From a virus (lineage: Duplodnaviria > Heunggongvirae > Uroviricota > Caudoviricetes), in IMG/VR virus record IMGVR_UViG_2585427783_000001, positions 1-11,471 of that record: 11,471 bases of DNA; one strand, given 5' to 3'. The position numbers and the translations under genes were made by a program. Below the pieces are notes generated by a model that made no database searches, was not told the DNA's origin, and was given only the letters and a program-made list of their open reading frames with translations. Positions 1-11,471 of the stretch are shown here, piece after piece (positions within the stretch are counted from its first letter, which is position 1; every line of letters begins with the position of its first letter).

Positions 1-616
1 GTTATACGAATCCGGCAGAATAACGGAAGCCGCGTGTATGGCTCATGTCCGGAGAAAAATCCACGATGTGCATGCAAGAGCGCCCACCTACATCACCACG
101 GAAGCCCTGCAGCGTATCGGTGAACTGTATGCCATCGAGGCAGAGGTCCGGGGCTGTTCAGCAGAACAGCGTCTGGCGGCAAGAAAAGCCAGAGCCGCGC
201 CACTGATGCAGTCACTGTATGACTGGATACAGCAACAGATGAAAACACTGTCGCGTCACTCAGATACGGCAAAAGCGTTCGCATACCTGCTGAAACAGTG
301 GGATGCACTGAACGTGTACTGCAGTAATGGCTGGGGGGAAATCGACAACAACATCGCAGAGAACGCCTTACGGGGAGTGGCCGTAGGCCGGAAAAACTGG
401 ATGTTCGCGGGTTCCGACAGCGGTGGTGAACATGCGGCGGTGTTGTACTCGCTGATCGGCACATGCCGTCTGAACAATGTGGAGTCAGAAAAGTGGCTGC
501 GTTACGTCATTGAACATATCCAGGACTGGCCGGCAAACCGGGTACGCGATCTGTTGCCCTGGAAAGTTGATCTGAGCTCTCAGTAAATATCAATACGGTT
601 CTGACGAGTCGCTTAC
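1..616 (+). mobile_element. IS66-family insertion sequence, right-hand portion (rest lies left of the window)
   Basis: The transposase ORF is open to the window edge. About 30 bp after its stop the sequence ...GTCGCTTAC ends at 616, the reverse complement of the GTAAGCG terminus I recall for IS66-family inverted repeats. The integrase-derived sequence starts immediately after. Exact boundary is inferred. Confidence 0.55.
2..586 (+). CDS. IS66-family transposase (TnpC-like), C-terminal part; 5' end outside window
   Basis: Frame is open from position 2 with no upstream stop. Translation carries the conserved IS66 transposase C-terminal block ...[11 protein letters not shown]...[46 protein letters not shown]... 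Stop at 584-586. Confidence 0.85.
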
Positions 617-1394
617 GCTTGGCAAGCCAGTGCCGGAGTATAAACCAAAGCTGGCAAGCAAAGGAACGAAGACGCGGCATCTGGCAATACTTCGCGCTAT
701 TCTCAATATGGCTGTTGAATGGGGATGGCTTGACAGGGCGCCCAAAATATCAACACCACGCGTTAAGAATGGACGAATCAGATGGCTTACAGAGGAGGAA
801 TCGAAGCGCCTGTTTGCAGAAATTGCTCCTCACTTCTTCCCTGTGGTCATGTTTGCAATCACGACAGGCCTTCGCCGTTCCAACGTTACAGACCTTGAGT
901 GGTCACAGGTCGATCTGGATAAGAAAATGGCATGGATGCACCCTGATGAAACAAAAGCTGGCAATGCGATTGGAGTTCCTCTTAACGAAACCGCATGCCA
1001 GATATTAAGAAAACAGCAGGGGCTCCATAAGAGATGGGTATTTGTCCACACCAAACCTGCCTACCGAAGCGACGGAACAAAAACAGCAGCGGTAAGGAAA
1101 ATGAGAACCGACAGCAACAAGGCATGGAAGGGAGCGTTAAAGCGGGCAGGCATTAGCAACTTCCGCTTCCATGATCTGAGGCATACCTGGGCAAGCTGGC
1201 TGGTTCAGTCCGGTGTCTCTCTTCTTGCACTTAAAGAGATGGGAGGATGGGAAACTCTCGAAATGGTTCAAAGATACGCCCACCTTTCAGCCGGGCATCT
1301 CACCGAGCACGCGAGCAAAATCGATGCGATTATAAGTCGCAATGGCACAAATACGGCACAAGAGGAGAACGTAGTTTACTTAAATGTGAGGTAA
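617..1394 (+). pseudogene. int: Tyrosine recombinase / phage integrase, 3' fragment truncated by the IS66 insertion
   Basis: Translation ends with the catalytic signature of tyrosine recombinases (...FRFHDLRHTWASWLVQSGVSLLALKEMGGWETLEMVQRYAHLS..., the R..HxxR..Y box) preceded by ...ITTGLRRSNVTDLEWSQVDLDKKMAWMHPDETKAGNAIGVPL... Only about 255 codons remain and the N-terminal DNA-binding domains are missing. The frame runs upstream into IS66 sequence with no plausible native start (the ORF track starts at a GTG at 630). Confidence 0.8.
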
Positions 1395-1408
1395 CTTATT
1401 GATTTAAA

Positions 1409-1454
1409 TGGTGCCGATAATAGGAGTCGAACCTACGACCTTCGCATTACGAAT
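1409..1454 (-). tRNA. 3'-terminal 46 nt of tRNA-Thr only (att-core remnant, not a functional tRNA)
   Basis: Reverse complement of 1409-1454 reads ATTCGTAATGCGAAGGTCGTAGGTTCGACTCCTATTATCGGCACCA, which matches as recalled the anticodon-loop-to-CCA part of E. coli tRNA-Thr(CGU) (thrW). Similarity stops at 1455, and the 5' acceptor strand, D-arm and anticodon stem are absent. It lies 14 bp after the integrase stop, convergent with it. Confidence 0.7.
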
Positions 1455-1837
1455 TATAAGAATCCGCTTCTAATTCAAAGCATTACCCCATCAACACTGC
1501 GCTCACACGTCCCACCACATCAAAACATGTAAAGCCTTGCAAGCCATTGCGAGGCTTTATGTGTCTCAGTTTTGTCCCACCTTTTATTACGACTTGCATA
1601 GCCAATGAAGATAAACGTGACGACAAACGGCGCAGCAATCTTCCTTTCTTTCACACTTTCCCAACCCAGCATGTATACTTTTCTGCCATAACTAAAGTGA
1701 ATGCCTGTTATGAGCAACAAACAGGCATTAGCGCCGCTAGCATATTAGCTACCATTCGACTGCCACACTTAAGATTGATTTCTTAAGTATAACCCGGTTT
1801 CTAATACTACTTATATATTCAGCTCTGAGATTCATTT

Positions 1838-4800
1838 TTATCTCGTAAAGCTAGTTTTATGACTTCCTGTTAGCTGACTGTCTTCATAATAAAATGCTCC
1901 ACTAAACTCCTGTCGACCATAATGATGACTTGATATGAGTGAGCCCCCTATAACGCCCTTTTCACCTAATAATGTCCAAACGATTTCAAAACCATTGTCC
2001 CTTAACATTGTTAAAAATGGTTCTTTTTTAACAAGTAGATGCGGCTTTGAAGCATATACAGCTTCAGCTGCAAAGCAAACCATAGTTCCATTTTCATCAT
2101 TGAAGCTACCCTCTACTTCCCCACTTTTTAATCCCATCTTTTCAAAGATTAAGTTACTAGGCTTCAAAAAATTCAAAGTTTCTATTTTTGATTTGTCGAA
2201 CTCCTCTTCCCACAAATAATTAATCGAAGTGACACTAACATCAGCTATCTTAGCTCCAGACTCCCGGTCTGTTACCGAAGTCCAGTCAGATCCACCATAA
2301 TAATCTGATTTAAAAGACTTAAATGCTTCGGACCAATAGTACTCCCTATTAAATAATTGGTATCTATCAGTACATTCCGGCATCCACCTGCCCATAAAGT
2401 CTTGAGCTATTGCCCAACATCTAAAATTTTCAAATTCTTCAACTTTAACGATATAACTTCTGATCTGATACCAAACCTCTTTTCGTGGGTGCCCCCAATC
2501 ATCGTTTCCAATAATTTTTGGTTCTTTCCATGATGGATGACTTTCTAATACTATCCATTCATCACCATTATCATCTTTAACTTCAATAAAAGCATATGAA
2601 TTAGTTATAGTAGTAGAACTTTTAACCCAGTCTTCATTAGAGCAAGTCCAATCAAACACTTCATCATTAAGCCACCACATTTCTTTATTGCTTATTTTTT
2701 TCGTTCCAGTTTCTTTAAGTAAGATAGTGGGATCTATATCTCTTACGTAAGGCTCCCATGGCCCTTGGTATGGATTTTCCTTTCGTTCGTCACCATAACC
2801 TTCAAAACGAGTAAAATTATCGGCTAGCCTTGCCATGTATTCATAATAAGCAATCCATTGGTATTTTTTACCAATCCGTTCTTGGAATGCCTCTCTACGT
2901 CCACGTCCAGTTCCTATTTGTTGGTCAAAATTACCATGCTTCTCCGGATCCCAACCAAGCTCTATAACACGATTGAATATAAATTGTTGAGCTAGTCGAA
3001 GATCAAAGTGTTTATCAGTTTCCAGCAGATTATTATTATGATCCAGGTATGGCTCTATTTCATTTTCAAACTCACTTAACAGATCGTATGACAATGAATT
3101 CTTAAATAATTTCTTGCTCGCCTTTATTTCTTCCTGTGCTTTTCTACCGACCACACGACCAAATTTAATTCCTTCGCATTTATCATCATAAATGAAAGGA
3201 TCTGTGGCATCATACAAGTCTTTTTGTTGATCAGTTAGTTTACATTTGAAAGTTTTAAAAACTTGCTTACGGTCAACAGGGGTTTCATTAAACTTGCAAC
3301 CAGACCAATCAGAATGATTATAATTTGTTCCAATAGTATATCGTGAAAAGTCACCATCTTCCATAATAGAGCTCCAGAGTTCCCGATAAGGTTCTTTATC
3401 ATAAAGGGACTCTAGTTCCTCTTTTGAAGGAATCTTGTCAGGCCAAATGCTGTTGTAGGGTGGTCTAGTCTTGGATAATTCAATGCTTTCAAGTTCCAAT
3501 CCAAGATGATTAGCAAATTCAATAATCTCTCTAGCATAATCTCTAAGTAATATATTTGGATACACATACTTAGAACAAAATACCTTTTGGTAAACAGTTT
3601 CGGCTAAATATTTTAGTTCTTTAATATTATCAGTTCGCAATGTACAGCCTAATGCAACTGCAAATATTCTTTCCCAAACGTAAGGATCATTTACACCATA
3701 AAACTTATCAATTATTTTTCTCAATACAGGAATTCTTGGCTCGAGTAAACTCACTAAAGCCTTAGTTGAGCAATCTCGAAGTTCTCGGTTACTAGAAGTT
3801 AAAAACCAGCATAAACTAGTTGCAACTAGCTCGATTGACTCATCCGAAACAAAGCTTTTATCTGTTCTGGCCCATGCCCAATCGATTAGATGCCTAAATG
3901 CTGAGTCTTCACTATATTTATATTTAAGTTCTGTAGTCCAAAACGAATCTCGATTTGCCAAAGAATAATCTTTTAGCCAATCATGCAAGAAATTAGCATT
4001 AAAGGGATGGCCAACTAAACCTGAAATAGAGATCACTGCCTCGAGGAAATGATCAAAACTATCTTTAAATTTAAAAACATGTTCATTGATGAAAGGTCTA
4101 ATTTTTTCGAAATAAATAGCCTTAATATCGCGCCATATCAAGCTATCAATAAAGGCTTCTAGTAATTTAAGATTATTGCTGAACTCCGGCAGAAATTCAT
4201 AAAGCTCTTTTTCATACCTTTCTGGCAATTGAATAGACAACGCCTCTACTATTCCCGATTTTATATAAAAATCACATTCATCATGAAAATATTTTTTCAG
4301 ACGACCATCAGGCTTAAATTCACTTTCGATATTTTCAACATCATTTAATAAAAAATTAACAGTTAAATGATCATCAAACCTTTCAAAAGCCACATAAACT
4401 ACTTCCTCAGTAGAATTATCATCATTTCTCACTATGCCTTTAGTCAATAATCCTTCGTCAATCAAGGCGCTGAGGAAGGTTTTATCAGCAACATAATCAT
4501 TAACTACAGATTGAACCACTGAGTGAGCATCTTTAAGTGAAATACTATTACGACCAATCTCTAATTTGAATTTTATGATTTCATTGAGAGCATCTTTAAC
4601 AAGAGGAAAACTGGGATCGAATGCATATTTTTTTGGCGATGCTAATGATTTATTTACCCCTTCAACTAAAAAGTTAAAAATATTTGAAATCCCATTAAAT
4701 CCAACAGGCACTTTGGTTAAACCATTTTTCTTAATGCCTTCACACAATAACTTAAGAAATAGAGGATTTTTAAACTCTGGATTAAGGTTAGGAGATGAAG

Positions 4801-5443
4801 GCCTCTCAATATTGTAATAATCATAAAATAGACTAACCGCTTCCAACTCAACGTTCTGGAATCCAATATGTTCATGAATTTCAAAATTATTTCGCACAAC
4901 ATTCTCATGTGAAATTGTTACATTTCTATATGTTGTTCTGACTGACATTATCAGACCAAGCCATTCAAAGCATCTGATTTCATCGACAAAACTGTTAATA
5001 TTGTCATTCCAGAATTTATTTCCATTACCTTCATTAATAGCATCAATAAAAACTAAGACTCTTTTTCCTGTTTTTTTGCCATATAAATTCAGTTTTTCTA
5101 GGAATTCACGAGAAGTGATTTTAAGCTGTAATCTCTTGAAGATTTGTGACCATGGAGATTCATCTGAAGTAAGTTGTTGCCCTAGTATGAGTAGTGAAGG
5201 ATACCCAGAAGCAATTCGATTTTTAATCACATCAGCCAGTAAATGAGACTTACCAATTCCTGCTTTTCCTTCGAGAAGTAAGAATGGGTTGTTAGCCAAC
5301 TTCACTGTTGTTGAATTAATGAATATACGTAATTCATTGCACGCATAGTCAAATTCCCGAAGCATTCGCAGAGTAGATGAATACTTATCACTGTAATGCT
5401 TGGTTTCACCTACTTGCTCTGACTTTTCTCGGAGTTCCCACAA
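1838..5443 (-). CDS. Large P-loop NTPase of the STAND class (NACHT/NB-ARC-like) with a ~1000-aa unassigned C-terminal region; candidate antiphage protein
   Basis: Uninterrupted 1201-codon ORF. Walker A GKAGIGKS (aa 59-66, nt 5246-5269), Walker B-like hhhhDxxxE VLVFIDAINE (aa 129-138) and sensor-1-like IMSVRTT (aa 165-171) occur in the order and spacing typical of STAND NTPases. Low GC. The start codon is uncertain: the track uses a TTG at 5443, and the first in-frame ATG is codon 27 at 5365. Confidence 0.8.
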   Translation of the reverse strand: MWELREKSEQVGETKHYSDKYSSTLRMLREFDYACNELRIFINSTTVKLANNPFLLLEGKAGIGKSHLLADVIKNRIASGYPSLLILGQQLTSDESPWSQIFKRLQLKITSREFLEKLNLYGKKTGKRVLVFIDAINEGNGNKFWNDNINSFVDEIRCFEWLGLIMSVRTTYRNVTISHENVVRNNFEIHEHIGFQNVELEAVSLFYDYYNIERPSSPNLNPEFKNPLFLKLLCEGIKKNGLTKVPVGFNGISNIFNFLVEGVNKSLASPKKYAFDPSFPLVKDALNEIIKFKLEIGRNSISLKDAHSVVQSVVNDYVADKTFLSALIDEGLLTKGIVRNDDNSTEEVVYVAFERFDDHLTVNFLLNDVENIESEFKPDGRLKKYFHDECDFYIKSGIVEALSIQLPERYEKELYEFLPEFSNNLKLLEAFIDSLIWRDIKAIYFEKIRPFINEHVFKFKDSFDHFLEAVISISGLVGHPFNANFLHDWLKDYSLANRDSFWTTELKYKYSEDSAFRHLIDWAWARTDKSFVSDESIELVATSLCWFLTSSNRELRDCSTKALVSLLEPRIPVLRKIIDKFYGVNDPYVWERIFAVALGCTLRTDNIKELKYLAETVYQKVFCSKYVYPNILLRDYAREIIEFANHLGLELESIELSKTRPPYNSIWPDKIPSKEELESLYDKEPYRELWSSIMEDGDFSRYTIGTNYNHSDWSGCKFNETPVDRKQVFKTFKCKLTDQQKDLYDATDPFIYDDKCEGIKFGRVVGRKAQEEIKASKKLFKNSLSYDLLSEFENEIEPYLDHNNNLLETDKHFDLRLAQQFIFNRVIELGWDPEKHGNFDQQIGTGRGRREAFQERIGKKYQWIAYYEYMARLADNFTRFEGYGDERKENPYQGPWEPYVRDIDPTILLKETGTKKISNKEMWWLNDEVFDWTCSNEDWVKSSTTITNSYAFIEVKDDNGDEWIVLESHPSWKEPKIIGNDDWGHPRKEVWYQIRSYIVKVEEFENFRCWAIAQDFMGRWMPECTDRYQLFNREYYWSEAFKSFKSDYYGGSDWTSVTDRESGAKIADVSVTSINYLWEEEFDKSKIETLNFLKPSNLIFEKMGLKSGEVEGSFNDENGTMVCFAAEAVYASKPHLLVKKEPFLTMLRDNGFEIVWTLLGEKGVIGGSLISSHHYGRQEFSGAFYYEDSQLTGSHKTSFTR

Positions 5444-5536
5444 TATTGATACCGCTCCGCCAATAGCTGTCTGGCAGCTAGAAACATAGTTATTAAATTT
5501 ATTTATAGGGATTTCATCTAATTTAGAAAAATTAAT

Positions 5537-6292
5537 CTACTGATATATATCAGAAATTTCTTTTAAGGACTGATTTATTTCAAATAATTCTGAGGAAATT
5601 ACATCGCAACTATGTAATTTCTTTCCAGCGACCAGAAAGCTATCTATATGCGAATAAAATATTTTAGAAAAATCATTAGTTCTACCGAGGCCATCAAATA
5701 TCTCTGCTATTTCTAGCTTTACGTTGAGTTCGGGTGTGTATCGACCTCCCAAGTCAGCTATTGCTTGACTATTTTTTTCATTTAACCAATCATCACTTAA
5801 GTGAAAAGTTAGTTTCTCATCTATAGACCGTAAAATAAGTTTGACTTGAATGAGCTCTTCATTAATATCGAATATTTTTTCTTTATACGTTTCTTCGATA
5901 TGTAGCTTTTTTAACTTCGAACAATTATTGATTTTTAATGATAACATCCCATAAAAAAGGCTGAGTTGTTGTTGAGTTGGGGGAGTGACGCTTGGATATT
6001 CTTTGAACTTGTCTAATAACATCTCTTTGTCAGGGAACTCTTTAAAAAGGATGTACTCATTCAACATCTCAAACAATGGTTTAGAATGATAAAATGGAAT
6101 TGCTCCACTTTCTACTGGATATGTTTCTTCAAACTCAATTGCCGTCTCTTCAATTAGTTGATATAATCTATCCACATATTTTTCTGTGGGGAATAATGCT
6201 TTCTTAATCCAACTATATCCTTCTTGAGAAATGAATTGATCAATAAGTTTAGTTGCTACATAAGTTGCCACTGTAATTGATATGGGTTCCAT
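5537..6292 (-). CDS. Hypothetical protein (251 aa), upstream partner of the STAND NTPase; possible detached effector or N-terminal domain
   Basis: ATG at 6292 is preceded by GGGAGA about 8 nt upstream, a good Shine-Dalgarno. Same strand and same frame as the downstream NTPase gene, low GC. I see no catalytic motif in the translation. Confidence 0.7.
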   Translation of the reverse strand: MEPISITVATYVATKLIDQFISQEGYSWIKKALFPTEKYVDRLYQLIEETAIEFEETYPVESGAIPFYHSKPLFEMLNEYILFKEFPDKEMLLDKFKEYPSVTPPTQQQLSLFYGMLSLKINNCSKLKKLHIEETYKEKIFDINEELIQVKLILRSIDEKLTFHLSDDWLNEKNSQAIADLGGRYTPELNVKLEIAEIFDGLGRTNDFSKIFYSHIDSFLVAGKKLHSCDVISSELFEINQSLKEISDIYQ

Positions 6293-6460
6293 GATTAGCT
6301 TCTCCCAACAATTAAATTTTTACCAAGCGTTTATGCTTTCCAATAATTATTACATCTCACCGTAAAACATATTTATATGGTTTTAAACCTATCTATAAAT
6401 CTTGACACCTTGGCAAGAACCTAATCCTACATTTTAATATCAATCTATATAATATCGCCA
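6293..6460 (-). promoter_or_regulatory. AT-rich upstream region likely holding the promoter for the 251-aa ORF / STAND NTPase operon
   Basis: Non-coding AT-rich stretch directly upstream of the first gene of the minus-strand pair. Several weak -10/-35-like hexamers are present, for example TATAAA on the minus strand near 6373-6378. No element can be placed with confidence. Confidence 0.25.
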
Positions 6461-6814
6461 GCGTCATAATAATCGGGCTTGTCATAGTTAAGTATTCGCC
6501 TCCGATATCCCAATGAGATAAGTAAGTCATAAGTGTTATAAATGAAAAGGTTACATTTTTCAAAGAGTTATTATGATGGAATATTATTCAAAACGCAATG
6601 TAGCTGAAACGAGTCTGAGTTTAACATCCGCTCCTAGTACATAGTAGTCCTAGGGACAGTGGCGTAAAGTCATAGATGGCCGGTGGGAGGTGATGGAAAT
6701 CCTCTCATGCAAAAAATACATAAAATCGATAACGGCTGGAAATCATTCAATACTCGCACTATCGAAAGTTCACCAGCCAACCGCGCACAATCTTGCATAC
6801 GACATGCTACGGTT

Positions 6815-7369
6815 TCATTTATCTCCGACCGGAAACTTCTTATACAGTGTCGATATACCAACATCATAGATGATCGCCACCTTCTGGCGAGGAACGCCTG
6901 ATGCAATTAATCGCCCGGCCTGCGCCCATTGTTCTGGTGTAAGTTTGGGACGACGTCCCCCAATTCGTCCCTGTGCGCGAGCAGCTTCCAGTCCAGCTTT
7001 TGTTCGTTCAACAATCAGTTCTCGTTCCATTTCAGCCAGGGCACCCATCACATGAAAGAAAAAACGCCCCATCGGTGTGCTGGTATCAATAGCATCCGTC
7101 AGGCTGCGAAAATTAACGCCACGTTCGCGCAACTCCTCAACCAGAATGACCAGATGCCGCATACTACGCCCCAGCCGATCCAGTTTCCAGACCACCAGAG
7201 TGTCACCTGCCGATAATGTCCTGAGCAGTTTTTTCAGTCCCGGTCTTTCGGACTTCGTACCGCTTATCTTGTCTTCAAAAATCAGTTCACATCCTACACA
7301 GTTCAACGCATTACGTTGTAGATCGGTGTTCTGGTCATTTGTTGATACGCGAACATAGCCAATAAGCAT
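6815..7369 (-). CDS. pin: Serine DNA invertase of the Pin/Gin/Hin/Cin family
   Basis: Translation MLIGYVRVSTNDQNTDLQRNAL...DTLVVWKLDRLGRSMRHLV...[28 protein letters not shown]...GRIGGRRPKLT... is a canonical small serine recombinase with catalytic Ser in YVRVST and a C-terminal helix-turn-helix. The ATG at 7369 has GGGGGA about 6 nt upstream. The ORF track begins 12 codons earlier (MASFLLLPGGST), probably not the real start. Confidence 0.9.
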   Translation of the reverse strand: MLIGYVRVSTNDQNTDLQRNALNCVGCELIFEDKISGTKSERPGLKKLLRTLSAGDTLVVWKLDRLGRSMRHLVILVEELRERGVNFRSLTDAIDTSTPMGRFFFHVMGALAEMERELIVERTKAGLEAARAQGRIGGRRPKLTPEQWAQAGRLIASGVPRQKVAIIYDVGISTLYKKFPVGDK

Positions 7370-7455
7370 GGTAGATCCCCCAGGTAAAAGCAGGAATGAT
7401 GCCATTTGCTCGTTATTTCTGCATTTTCATAAACCTTGGTTTGGGAGAAGGTGCT
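7041..7455. repeat. Left arm of a ~415-bp inverted repeat (invertase 5' region plus crossover site)
   Basis: Reverse complement of 9164-9578 aligns base for base with 7041-7455 (coordinate sum 16619) with only a few mismatches: two amino-acid changes in the invertase and CC versus TG inside the crossover site. The right arm is cut at 9578 by IS100, so the original repeat may have been longer. Confidence 0.8.
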
Positions 7456-8486: not shown

Positions 8487-8886
8487 GCCATTCAATATCG
8501 GGTGCTGTTGACGTATCAACACGCATCAGCAGCACACGGTATTTCTTCCATTGGGTGAGAGTTGTAGCTTCTTCATCAGTTGCGATATCAGCATCAACAG
8601 CATCCTGACGCCAGGATATTTCACTGTCAGCTTTTTCCCGTAATTGGGATTTTTTAACTTCAGCAATAGCTATTAATTCCTTTTTGGTCGGCTGAGGAAT
8701 ATCTATCAGTGCTGGTTTTCCATTCAGTGTTCCAATCTGTTTTCCTGGTGGAATATCCATAAATAACTTCTTATGTTCTTCCTCACTGACTATTACACCA
8801 TCATCAGGCCACAGACCTGATGCCTCAAATTTTTCTTTCTCCGATATGGGGAAAAAGCCATTTGCTTTAGCGCTCCATACGTACAT
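8458..8886 (-). CDS. tfa: Tail-fibre assembly protein, alternative copy (Tfa/U'-like)
   Basis: 142 aa ending ...WKKYRVLLMRVDTSTAPDIEWPTPP, the same C-terminal motif as the forward copy. Start is adjacent to the stop of the reverse tail-fibre cassette. Its 3' end overlaps the forward tfa by 29 bp. Confidence 0.8.
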   Translation of the reverse strand: MYVWSAKANGFFPISEKEKFEASGLWPDDGVIVSEEEHKKLFMDIPPGKQIGTLNGKPALIDIPQPTKKELIAIAEVKKSQLREKADSEISWRQDAVDADIATDEEATTLTQWKKYRVLLMRVDTSTAPDIEWPTPPAVQAR

Positions 8887-8887
8887 A

Positions 8888-9223
8888 TCAATACCCCACC
8901 GCTATAATGTCCACATTAAATCCCCCGGGACCTGCCTGCCAGATGCTGGCCCCTGTTAATGATTTTGTTTGATGAACAACCGCCACATTTGCTGGCGATT
9001 GTGTTTCAGTTGTTACAGTACCGATATCATTCCAGTTAATTGAGATGGAATAGTTCGTTGTTGTAAACGACCGGGGGAAAGTTATGTGTCTTACATTGGT
9101 GCCGACAGGAAATCCAAGATAAACACGCTGAATTATCATTCCTCCAGGTAACATAACCCAGTTAGCACCTTCTCCAAAACCAACATTTATGAAAATGCAG
9201 AAATAACGAGCAAATGGCATCAT
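8888..9223 (-). CDS. Alternative tail-fibre C-terminal variable-domain cassette (Sv'-like); lacks the constant part
   Basis: Mirror-image partner of the forward cassette, beginning inside the right repeat arm with the same MMPFARYFCIFIN leader and then diverging (...GEGANWVMLPGG...NVDIIAVGY). Directly followed by the reverse tfa gene. Confidence 0.65.
   Translation of the reverse strand: MMPFARYFCIFINVGFGEGANWVMLPGGMIIQRVYLGFPVGTNVRHITFPRSFTTTNYSISINWNDIGTVTTETQSPANVAVVHQTKSLTGASIWQAGPGGFNVDIIAVGY
9170..9195. other. Invertase crossover site, right (inverted relative to the left site)
   Basis: TTCTCCAAAACC-AA-CATTTATGAAAA is the reverse complement of the left site apart from two central bases, and sits at the junction of repeat and unique DNA. 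Confidence 0.55.
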
Positions 9224-9249
9224 TCCTGCTTTTACCTGGGGGATCTACC

Positions 9250-11471
<2,222 letters not shown>

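What the first reader, a model, noticed from the sequence alone, without database searches (positions are those of the whole stretch)
1455..6660. Low-GC cargo block bounded by a tRNA-derived att core and the pin invertase gene
Seen in sequence: spot counts on 60-bp lines inside 1838-6292 give about 30-42% GC, against about 50% or more in the IS66, integrase, invertase and IS100 regions. The shift occurs right after the tRNA-Thr fragment (1455) and just past the invertase 3' end (about 6650). Established knowledge: prophage ends and integrase/tRNA-adjacent slots are recurrent hotspots for exchangeable defense cargo. Inference: the block is a recently acquired moron in such a slot, which fits a defense role for its genes.
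Basis: partly seen in the sequence, partly recalled or inferred. Interest (0 to 1): 0.5.

Follow-up and report, generated by a model that had tools for sequence, protein, structure and literature searches.

The report
Prophage-end slot carrying defence gene Avs2
The low-GC block is real and is a single, already well-studied anti-phage gene (EcAvs2, a sensor of phage terminase) sitting in a swappable cargo slot at the end of a decayed E. coli prophage, and this copy carries a premature stop codon.

Summary
The compositional break is confirmed: 33.9% GC inside against 49-50% outside, with best change points at 1768 and 6624 (log-likelihood gain 137 nats). The block is one gene, avs2 (1838-6292, minus strand), plus its flanks. 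The protein is near-identical to EcAvs2, whose cryo-EM structure with a phage terminase is solved (PDB 9O4E). The 46-nt tRNA-Thr (thrW) core is at 1409-1454, and pinE ends at 6815. In intact relatives the order is chromosome, attR core, arm, Avs2, pinE, invertible tail fibres, then the rest of an e14-like myovirus prophage. Other genomes fill the same position with McrA, PD-T4-3, restriction systems, a RES-domain protein, unknown genes, or nothing. Three corrections apply. The exchangeable part is about 1716-6624, not 1455-6660. There is one gene, not several, and this copy has a nonsense codon (E252*) that none of 80 complete E. coli genomes shares. "Recently acquired" is not supported: this Avs2 clade is 30-37% GC in every host examined, and the cargo has diverged about as much as its flanks. 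Verdict: already known and ordinary. Minor open points are the conserved flanking "handles" and several unannotated alternative cargo genes.

The parts
630..1394 (+). N-terminally truncated tyrosine integrase (cut by IS66). It belongs to a neighbouring thrW-integrated element, not to the cargo.
   Evidence: About 70% DNA identity to the integrase next to intact thrW in L001.
1409..1454 (-). 46-nt att core, equal to the 3' end of tRNA-Thr thrW.
   Evidence: 100% match to annotated tRNA-Thr (H120).
1455..1715 (.). Conserved prophage-end arm ('left handle'), 43% GC. It contains a conserved 50-codon ORF (1520-1672, minus strand) and a hairpin at 1525-1564.
   Evidence: 92-95% identical in prophages carrying other cargo (L005, L006, L008, L011). 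The part 1520-1715 also lies next to icd' attR (L058, L062). ORF conservation; hairpin.
1716..1837 (-). 3' flank of avs2; the cargo-specific DNA begins here.
   Evidence: Homology with other-cargo prophages ends at 1715-1730. 36.9% GC.
1838..6292 (-). avs2 (AVAST type 2 STAND NTPase, EcAvs2 allele), 1484 codons, interrupted by a stop at codon 252.
   Evidence: NCBIfam NF041813, 1687 bits against a cut-off of 1000. PADLOC Avs2. PDB 9O4E, 3415 bits over 1-1484. Annotated avs2 in RefSeq.
5537..5539 (-). Nonsense codon TAG in place of GAG (E252*), upstream of the Walker A motif (K348).
   Evidence: None of 80 genomes shares the exact 61-mer; 79 differ from it at one base.
6293..6624 (-). AT-rich upstream (promoter/leader) region that travels with avs2.
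   Evidence: 32% GC for 6293-6638. Co-transferred with avs2 into lambdoid prophages.
6625..6814 (.). GC-normal 'right handle'. It includes a roughly 95-nt repeated element (about 6718-6815) that ends in a terminator-like hairpin.
   Evidence: Conserved next to other cargo in L005, L008, L011 and L062. Present in 5394 of 5426 genomes. Alignment and fold.
6815..7369 (-). pinE serine invertase; it marks the tail-fibre end of the e14-like prophage.
   Evidence: Homology to e14 pinE starts at 6814.

Best explanation
The low-GC block is a one-gene defence cassette: avs2 with about 330-490 nt of upstream DNA and about 120-250 nt of downstream DNA. It occupies the variable slot at the right end of an e14-like myovirus prophage integrated in tRNA-Thr thrW, between the Pin invertase gene and the attR core. 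Avs2 is a STAND NTPase. Its C-terminal repeat domain binds the large terminase of an infecting tailed phage, the protein then tetramerises, and its N-terminal effector kills the cell. This mechanism was shown experimentally for this same protein, EcAvs2, and is not tested here. The cassette is flanked by two conserved non-coding segments, about 1520-1715 and 6625-6814. These also flank other cargo in other prophages. I infer that cargo is exchanged by recombination in or next to these segments. In this window the prophage is a remnant, cut by IS66 and IS100 and inverted relative to the chromosome. The avs2 copy has a private nonsense mutation (E252*) that separates the effector region from the ATPase and sensor, so it is most likely non-functional here.
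For: Identity: NCBIfam Avs2 equivalog scores 1687 bits against a cut-off of 1000 over the whole profile. Six PADLOC Avs2 models match. The match to PDB 9O4E EcAvs2 is near-identical. The mechanism is taken from PMC13601566. Position: L002 and L003 have paoD, LysR', core, arm, avs2, pinE, invertible tail fibres, baseplate, tail, head and terminase in intact prophages. Slot variability: mcrA in K-12 e14. PD-T4-3 with or without AraC, unknown genes, an Mrr-like REase or a type II RM system. RES-domain and unknown genes. Empty slots. Accessory status: 87 of 5426 complete genomes hold at least 80% of arm-avs2-pin. Cassette mobility: the same block lies in lambdoid prophages at icd and at thrW. Composition. 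Nonsense codon.
Against: The stop codon could be a sequencing error. Recombination at the handles is inferred from shared boundaries in about ten loci, not demonstrated, and I did not run a systematic survey of all genomes. The phage collection holds no record carrying this avs2 block, so carriage by an active, inducible phage is not shown.
Confidence: 0.9

Rival explanations
1. The integrase fragment, the att core and avs2 together form a small autonomous integrative island that entered thrW on its own, rather than a prophage moron.
For: An integrase fragment (630-1394) lies directly next to the core, on the side away from avs2.
Against: In L002 only about 70 nt of that integrase remains, and in L003 about 260 nt. 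In both, avs2 is contiguous with an intact prophage on its other side. The arm next to the core is shared by prophages with other cargo. The integrase lies on the chromosomal or neighbouring-element side of the core.
Confidence: 0.04
2. The block holds a two-gene system: a 251-aa protein and a 1201-aa protein.
For: The ORF list shows two ORFs, 5537-6292 and 1838-5443.
Against: Both are in the same frame and are separated by a single TAG. The same 4455 nt is one ORF in L001 and is annotated as one avs2 in the other genomes. It matches a single 1484-aa PDB chain.
Confidence: 0.02
3. The low GC marks a very recent transfer from a low-GC donor into this strain.
For: GC3 is 26.6% against 44-57% in neighbouring genes. 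More distant homologues (45-48% identity) lie in Bacteroidota.
Against: The gene is 30-37% GC in Escherichia, Serpens, Aeromonas, Shewanella and Colwellia even where the flanks are 50-62% GC. Cargo and flanks have diverged to a similar degree between prophage lineages. The cassette is already spread over three prophage backbones in E. coli.
Confidence: 0.15
4. The E252* stop is a sequencing or assembly error, and avs2 is intact and active in the source strain.
For: It is a single-base change seen in none of 80 other genomes. Otherwise only one further, synonymous difference from L001 occurs in 4455 nt.
Against: Nothing in the window suggests low quality. Loss-of-function alleles of abortive-infection genes are plausible in a decaying prophage remnant.
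Confidence: 0.25

Closest known systems
EcAvs2 (AVAST type 2; PDB 9O4E; Evans et al. 2026, PMC13601566)
   Same: Same length (1484 aa) and near-identical sequence. One substitution (Y versus D at residue 727) was seen in the roughly 970 residues (284-1238) of the alignment that were displayed. Same Walker A motif (K348) and same uncharacterised N-terminal effector.
   Different: The window copy has a stop at codon 252.
e14 prophage right end of E. coli K-12 (pinE - mcrA - icd' attR)
   Same: Same pinE and invertible tail-fibre module (91% DNA identity). A defence gene lies between pin and attR.
   Different: The cargo is McrA, the att site is icd, and neither handle sequence is detectable there.
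PD-T4-3 (GIY-YIG single-gene defence system)
   Same: It occupies the same pin-proximal position in related thrW and ssrA prophages, and lies just beyond this window in the same lineage.
   Different: It is inserted at 6779-6815, directly next to pin, so it can coexist with other cargo in the main slot.
Phage morons, the lambda b region and the P2/P4 defence hotspots (established knowledge; P2 hotspots as quoted)
   Same: A variable accessory locus between the tail-fibre genes and attP/attR, with an AT-rich, independently transcribed cargo gene.
   Different: Here the slot is bounded by short conserved non-coding segments that are shared between myovirus and lambdoid backbones.

Membership tests
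Avs2 (AVAST type 2) | Full-length match to a curated Avs2 profile above its cut-off | tested here: met
   NF041813 scores 1687 bits (cut-off 1000) over profile positions 1-1317. PADLOC PDLC02164 scores 1755 bits.
Avs2 (AVAST type 2) | STAND NTPase Walker A motif | tested here: met
   GKAGIGKS is present in the translation. It corresponds to K348, which is needed for defence.
Avs2 (AVAST type 2) | Identity with an experimentally characterised member | tested here: met
   PDB 9O4E chain A: 3415 bits over residues 1-1484. The displayed alignment is nearly all identities.
Avs2 (AVAST type 2) | Uninterrupted reading frame | tested here: not met
   TAG at codon 252 in the window. The frame is intact in L001 and in the annotated copies elsewhere.
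Avs2 (AVAST type 2) | Terminase-triggered oligomerisation and anti-phage activity | not testable with these tools
   Shown for EcAvs2 in PMC13601566.
Prophage-end cargo (moron) hotspot | Lies between the last phage structural module and attR in intact prophages | tested here: met
   L002 and L003.
Prophage-end cargo (moron) hotspot | Different cargo between the same flanking sequences in related elements | tested here: met
   L005, L006, L008, L011 and L062, with empty slots in L004 and L009.
Prophage-end cargo (moron) hotspot | Accessory distribution | tested here: met
   87 of 5426 complete E. coli genomes.
Prophage-end cargo (moron) hotspot | Recent acquisition relative to the flanks | tested here: not met
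   Per-block identities are similar. Low GC is intrinsic to this gene clade.
tRNA-derived att core | Exact copy of the tRNA 3' end, oriented as a direct repeat of the intact tRNA in an undisturbed prophage | tested here: met
   46 of 46 nt match thrW. The orientation is consistent with attR in L002. It is inverted in the window lineage.

The most novel reading that the evidence does not exclude
The two conserved segments (about 1520-1715, with a 50-codon membrane-peptide-like ORF, and about 6625-6814, with a repeated terminator-bearing element) may act as portable recombination handles. They would let unrelated prophages (e14-like myoviruses and lambdoid siphoviruses, at thrW and icd) swap insulated cargo cassettes. 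On this reading, the unannotated genes found between them (256 aa in L062; 488 aa and 129 aa in L005; 432 aa and 224 aa in L011) are new defence genes. A linked question: intact prophages carry a broad terminase sensor next to their own terminase gene, so they must evade or silence it.
Probability: 0.3. Interest if true: 0.45.

Novelty: already known. Interest (0 to 1): 0.2.

Why it matters
It gives the native genomic home of the structurally characterised EcAvs2: a swappable slot at prophage ends. It also shows that low GC alone does not date such cargo. Practically, the slot and its conserved flanks could be mined for further defence genes. The coexistence of Avs2 with a resident prophage terminase poses a testable autoimmunity question. 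For this window itself, nothing new is implied.

Tried and rejected
Rfam found nothing in the whole window at gathering thresholds, and nothing at E-value up to 1 in either handle region. The promoter and terminator scan gave no excess over shuffles. Pfam gave no domain for the Avs2 N-terminal effector, only a sub-threshold nSTAND6 hit. Pfam and PADLOC gave nothing for the small ORFs 1520-1720 and 6393-6563. The phage collection holds no record with this avs2 block. The one e14-like 'phage' record I inspected is a prophage prediction with chromosomal flanks; it carries pin-mcrA. I planned a genome-wide survey of cargo between the two handles, using an N-padded query, but did not run it. The H-NS preprint could not be opened, so only its abstract is available as context for AT-rich immune loci.
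Full report
**Observation.** The GC drop is real and large. Sliding windows fall from 45-55% to 30-38% between about 1650 and 6650. By block, IS66 is 54.0%, the integrase fragment 49.4%, the avs2 CDS 34.2% (GC3 26.6%), 6293-6638 is 32.1%, pinE 49.5% and IS100 51.9%. A two-change-point model places the breaks at 1768 and 6624, with a log-likelihood gain of 136.6 nats. ARAGORN finds no complete tRNA. However, window 1409-1454 is the exact reverse complement of the last 46 nt of tRNA-Thr thrW (H120).

**What the block is.** The two long minus-strand ORFs, 5537-6292 (251 aa) and 1838-5443 (1201 aa), are in one frame.
- The same 4455 nt in strain E1620 (L001) is a single 1484-codon gene annotated avs2.
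- The window differs from L001 at two bases. One of them turns codon 252 from GAG into TAG.
- The intact protein scores 1687 bits on the NCBIfam Avs2 equivalog (cut-off 1000) and matches six PADLOC Avs2 models.
- It is near-identical to PDB 9O4E, EcAvs2 bound to the PhiV-1 terminase.
- That paper (PMC13601566) shows four things. EcAvs2 is triggered by the ATPase domain of diverse large terminases. It forms a C4 tetramer. It needs Walker A K348. It has an uncharacterised N-terminal effector.
- The stop at codon 252 lies before K348, so the window copy is most likely inactive.
- None of 80 complete E. coli genomes holding this stretch has the exact 61-mer around the stop; 79 differ from it at one base.

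**Context.** In strains STK39-3-E and UID2309220003 (L002, L003), avs2 lies at the right end of an intact e14-like myovirus prophage. The order is paoD, LysR', a short integrase remnant, thrW core, arm, avs2, pinE, invertible tail fibres, baseplate, tail, head and terminase.

In the window lineage (L001) the arrangement is degraded and inverted: thrW, int, early genes, RusA', IS66, int fragment(+), core(-), avs2(-), pin(-), invertible segment, pin'(+) interrupted by IS100, PD-T4-3, AraC, then a second arm and core, and LysR'. A 415-nt, 97% inverted repeat (7041-7455 and 9164-9578) joins the two pin 5' halves. My inference is that two tandem prophages, one carrying Avs2 and one carrying PD-T4-3, underwent a Pin-type inversion between their invertible segments, and IS-associated deletion followed.

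**Slot survey.** Different genomes carry different cargo downstream of pin:

| Genome (locus) | Site or context | Cargo |
|---|---|---|
| K-12 e14 (L007) | icd | mcrA |
| CT02 (L005) | thrW | 488-aa and 129-aa unknowns plus PD-T4-3 |
| O157-type 08-3914 (L006) | thrW | IS fragment, AraC and PD-T4-3 |
| 30EVA1 (L008) | thrW (next to LysR'/paoD) | PDC-M01B-like protein, small tyrosine recombinase, Mrr-like REase and PD-T4-3 |
| EcE.CRE.COL (L010) | ssrA | type II RM plus PD-T4-3 |
| 19SZHZ663Rt (L011) | thrW core and arm | RES-domain protein plus 224-aa and 432-aa unknowns |
| 300709, Z1323CEC0016 (L004, L009) | next to pphA | nothing |

- Homology with these elements ends at window 1715-1730 on the left and resumes at 6623-6625 on the right. 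PD-T4-3 is inserted separately at 6779-6815.
- The exchangeable segment is therefore about 1716-6624, which agrees with the compositional change points.
- Only 87 of 5426 complete genomes hold at least 80% of arm-avs2-pin.

**Mobility of the cassette.** The same avs2 block also lies in other backbones.
- It sits at the end of lambdoid siphovirus prophages at icd, in the order gpJ, lom, stf, avs2, icd' (L058, L059).
- It sits at the end of a lambdoid prophage that shares the thrW core (L060).
- It occurs in Escherichia sp. E1V33 (L013).
- In strain DA61218 (L062) both flanking segments bracket a 256-aa unknown gene next to sitABCD at icd.

**Age.** Same-architecture homologues at 70-80% identity occur in Serpens, Aeromonas, Cycloclasticus, Shewanella and Colwellia. 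In these genera, DNA similarity is confined to the CDS. The gene is 30-37% GC everywhere, even where the flanks are 50-62% GC. Between the window and L002, avs2 is 96.1% identical, the arm 94.7%, the upstream region 94.5% and pin 94.8%. Low GC is thus a property of the gene clade, not a clock, and "recent" is not supported.

**Flanking segments.**
- The left segment carries a 50-codon ORF with a hydrophobic core. The ORF stays intact in eight copies, including one with an in-frame 3-nt insertion.
- Some part of the left segment is present in 4150 of 5426 genomes.
- The right segment contains a roughly 95-nt element found in 5394 of 5426 genomes, with a median of 3 copies. It ends in a hairpin with compensatory changes followed by a T-run. 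Rfam has no match.
- The function of both segments is unknown. Roles as a terminator or insulator, and as recombination handles, are inference.

**Verdict.** The gene is already known and structurally characterised, and defence cargo at prophage ends is established knowledge. Interest is low.

Noticed in passing
window 5537-5539: Private nonsense codon (GAG to TAG, E252*) in avs2. None of 80 complete E. coli genomes carrying this stretch shares it.
   Followed up: yes
window 7041-7455 and 9164-9578; L001 19000-24400: A 415-nt, 97% inverted repeat joins the 5' halves of two pin genes that flank one invertible tail-fibre segment. The second pin is split by IS100 and is followed, outside the window, by PD-T4-3. 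The layout fits a Pin-type inversion between two tandem thrW prophages.
   Followed up: partly
window 1520-1672 (minus strand): A conserved 50-codon ORF with a hydrophobic core (MLGWESVKERKIAAPFVVTFIFIGYASRNKRWDKTETHKASQWLARLYMF) lies just inside attR in thrW and icd prophages. Its 3' end overlaps an 18-bp-stem hairpin. No Pfam or PADLOC match. A partial copy lies in the K-12 DLP12 envY-ompT spacer.
   Followed up: partly
window about 6718-6815; L063 3001-3087; L061 6001-6112: A roughly 95-nt repeated element is present in nearly all E. coli genomes (up to 10 copies). It ends in a terminator-like hairpin with compensatory changes. It is also found between ecpE and ykgJ and downstream of ybhB. 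PGAP sometimes labels it a 'capsid protein' pseudogene. No Rfam match.
   Followed up: partly
L005 8003-8984; L008 7380-8362 (window equivalent 6779-6815): The PD-T4-3 (GIY-YIG) gene sits as a separate insertion directly next to pin. The 37 nt corresponding to window 6779-6815 appear on both sides of it.
   Followed up: no
L005 5484-6950 and 7266-7655; L011 4694-5368 and 5562-6860; L062 6279-7049: Unannotated genes with no Pfam or PADLOC match occupy the same slot as Avs2. They are candidate unknown defence genes.
   Followed up: partly
L002 20499-24953 and 43544-45277; L003 20509-24963 and 44176-45909: Apparently intact prophages encode both Avs2, a broad terminase sensor, and their own large terminase. 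How self-activation on induction is avoided is unknown.
   Followed up: no
window 8719-9163 versus L001 20627-20970: The invertible tail-fibre segment differs between the window and its closest complete genome. About 445 nt in the window are replaced by about 344 nt in L001.
   Followed up: no
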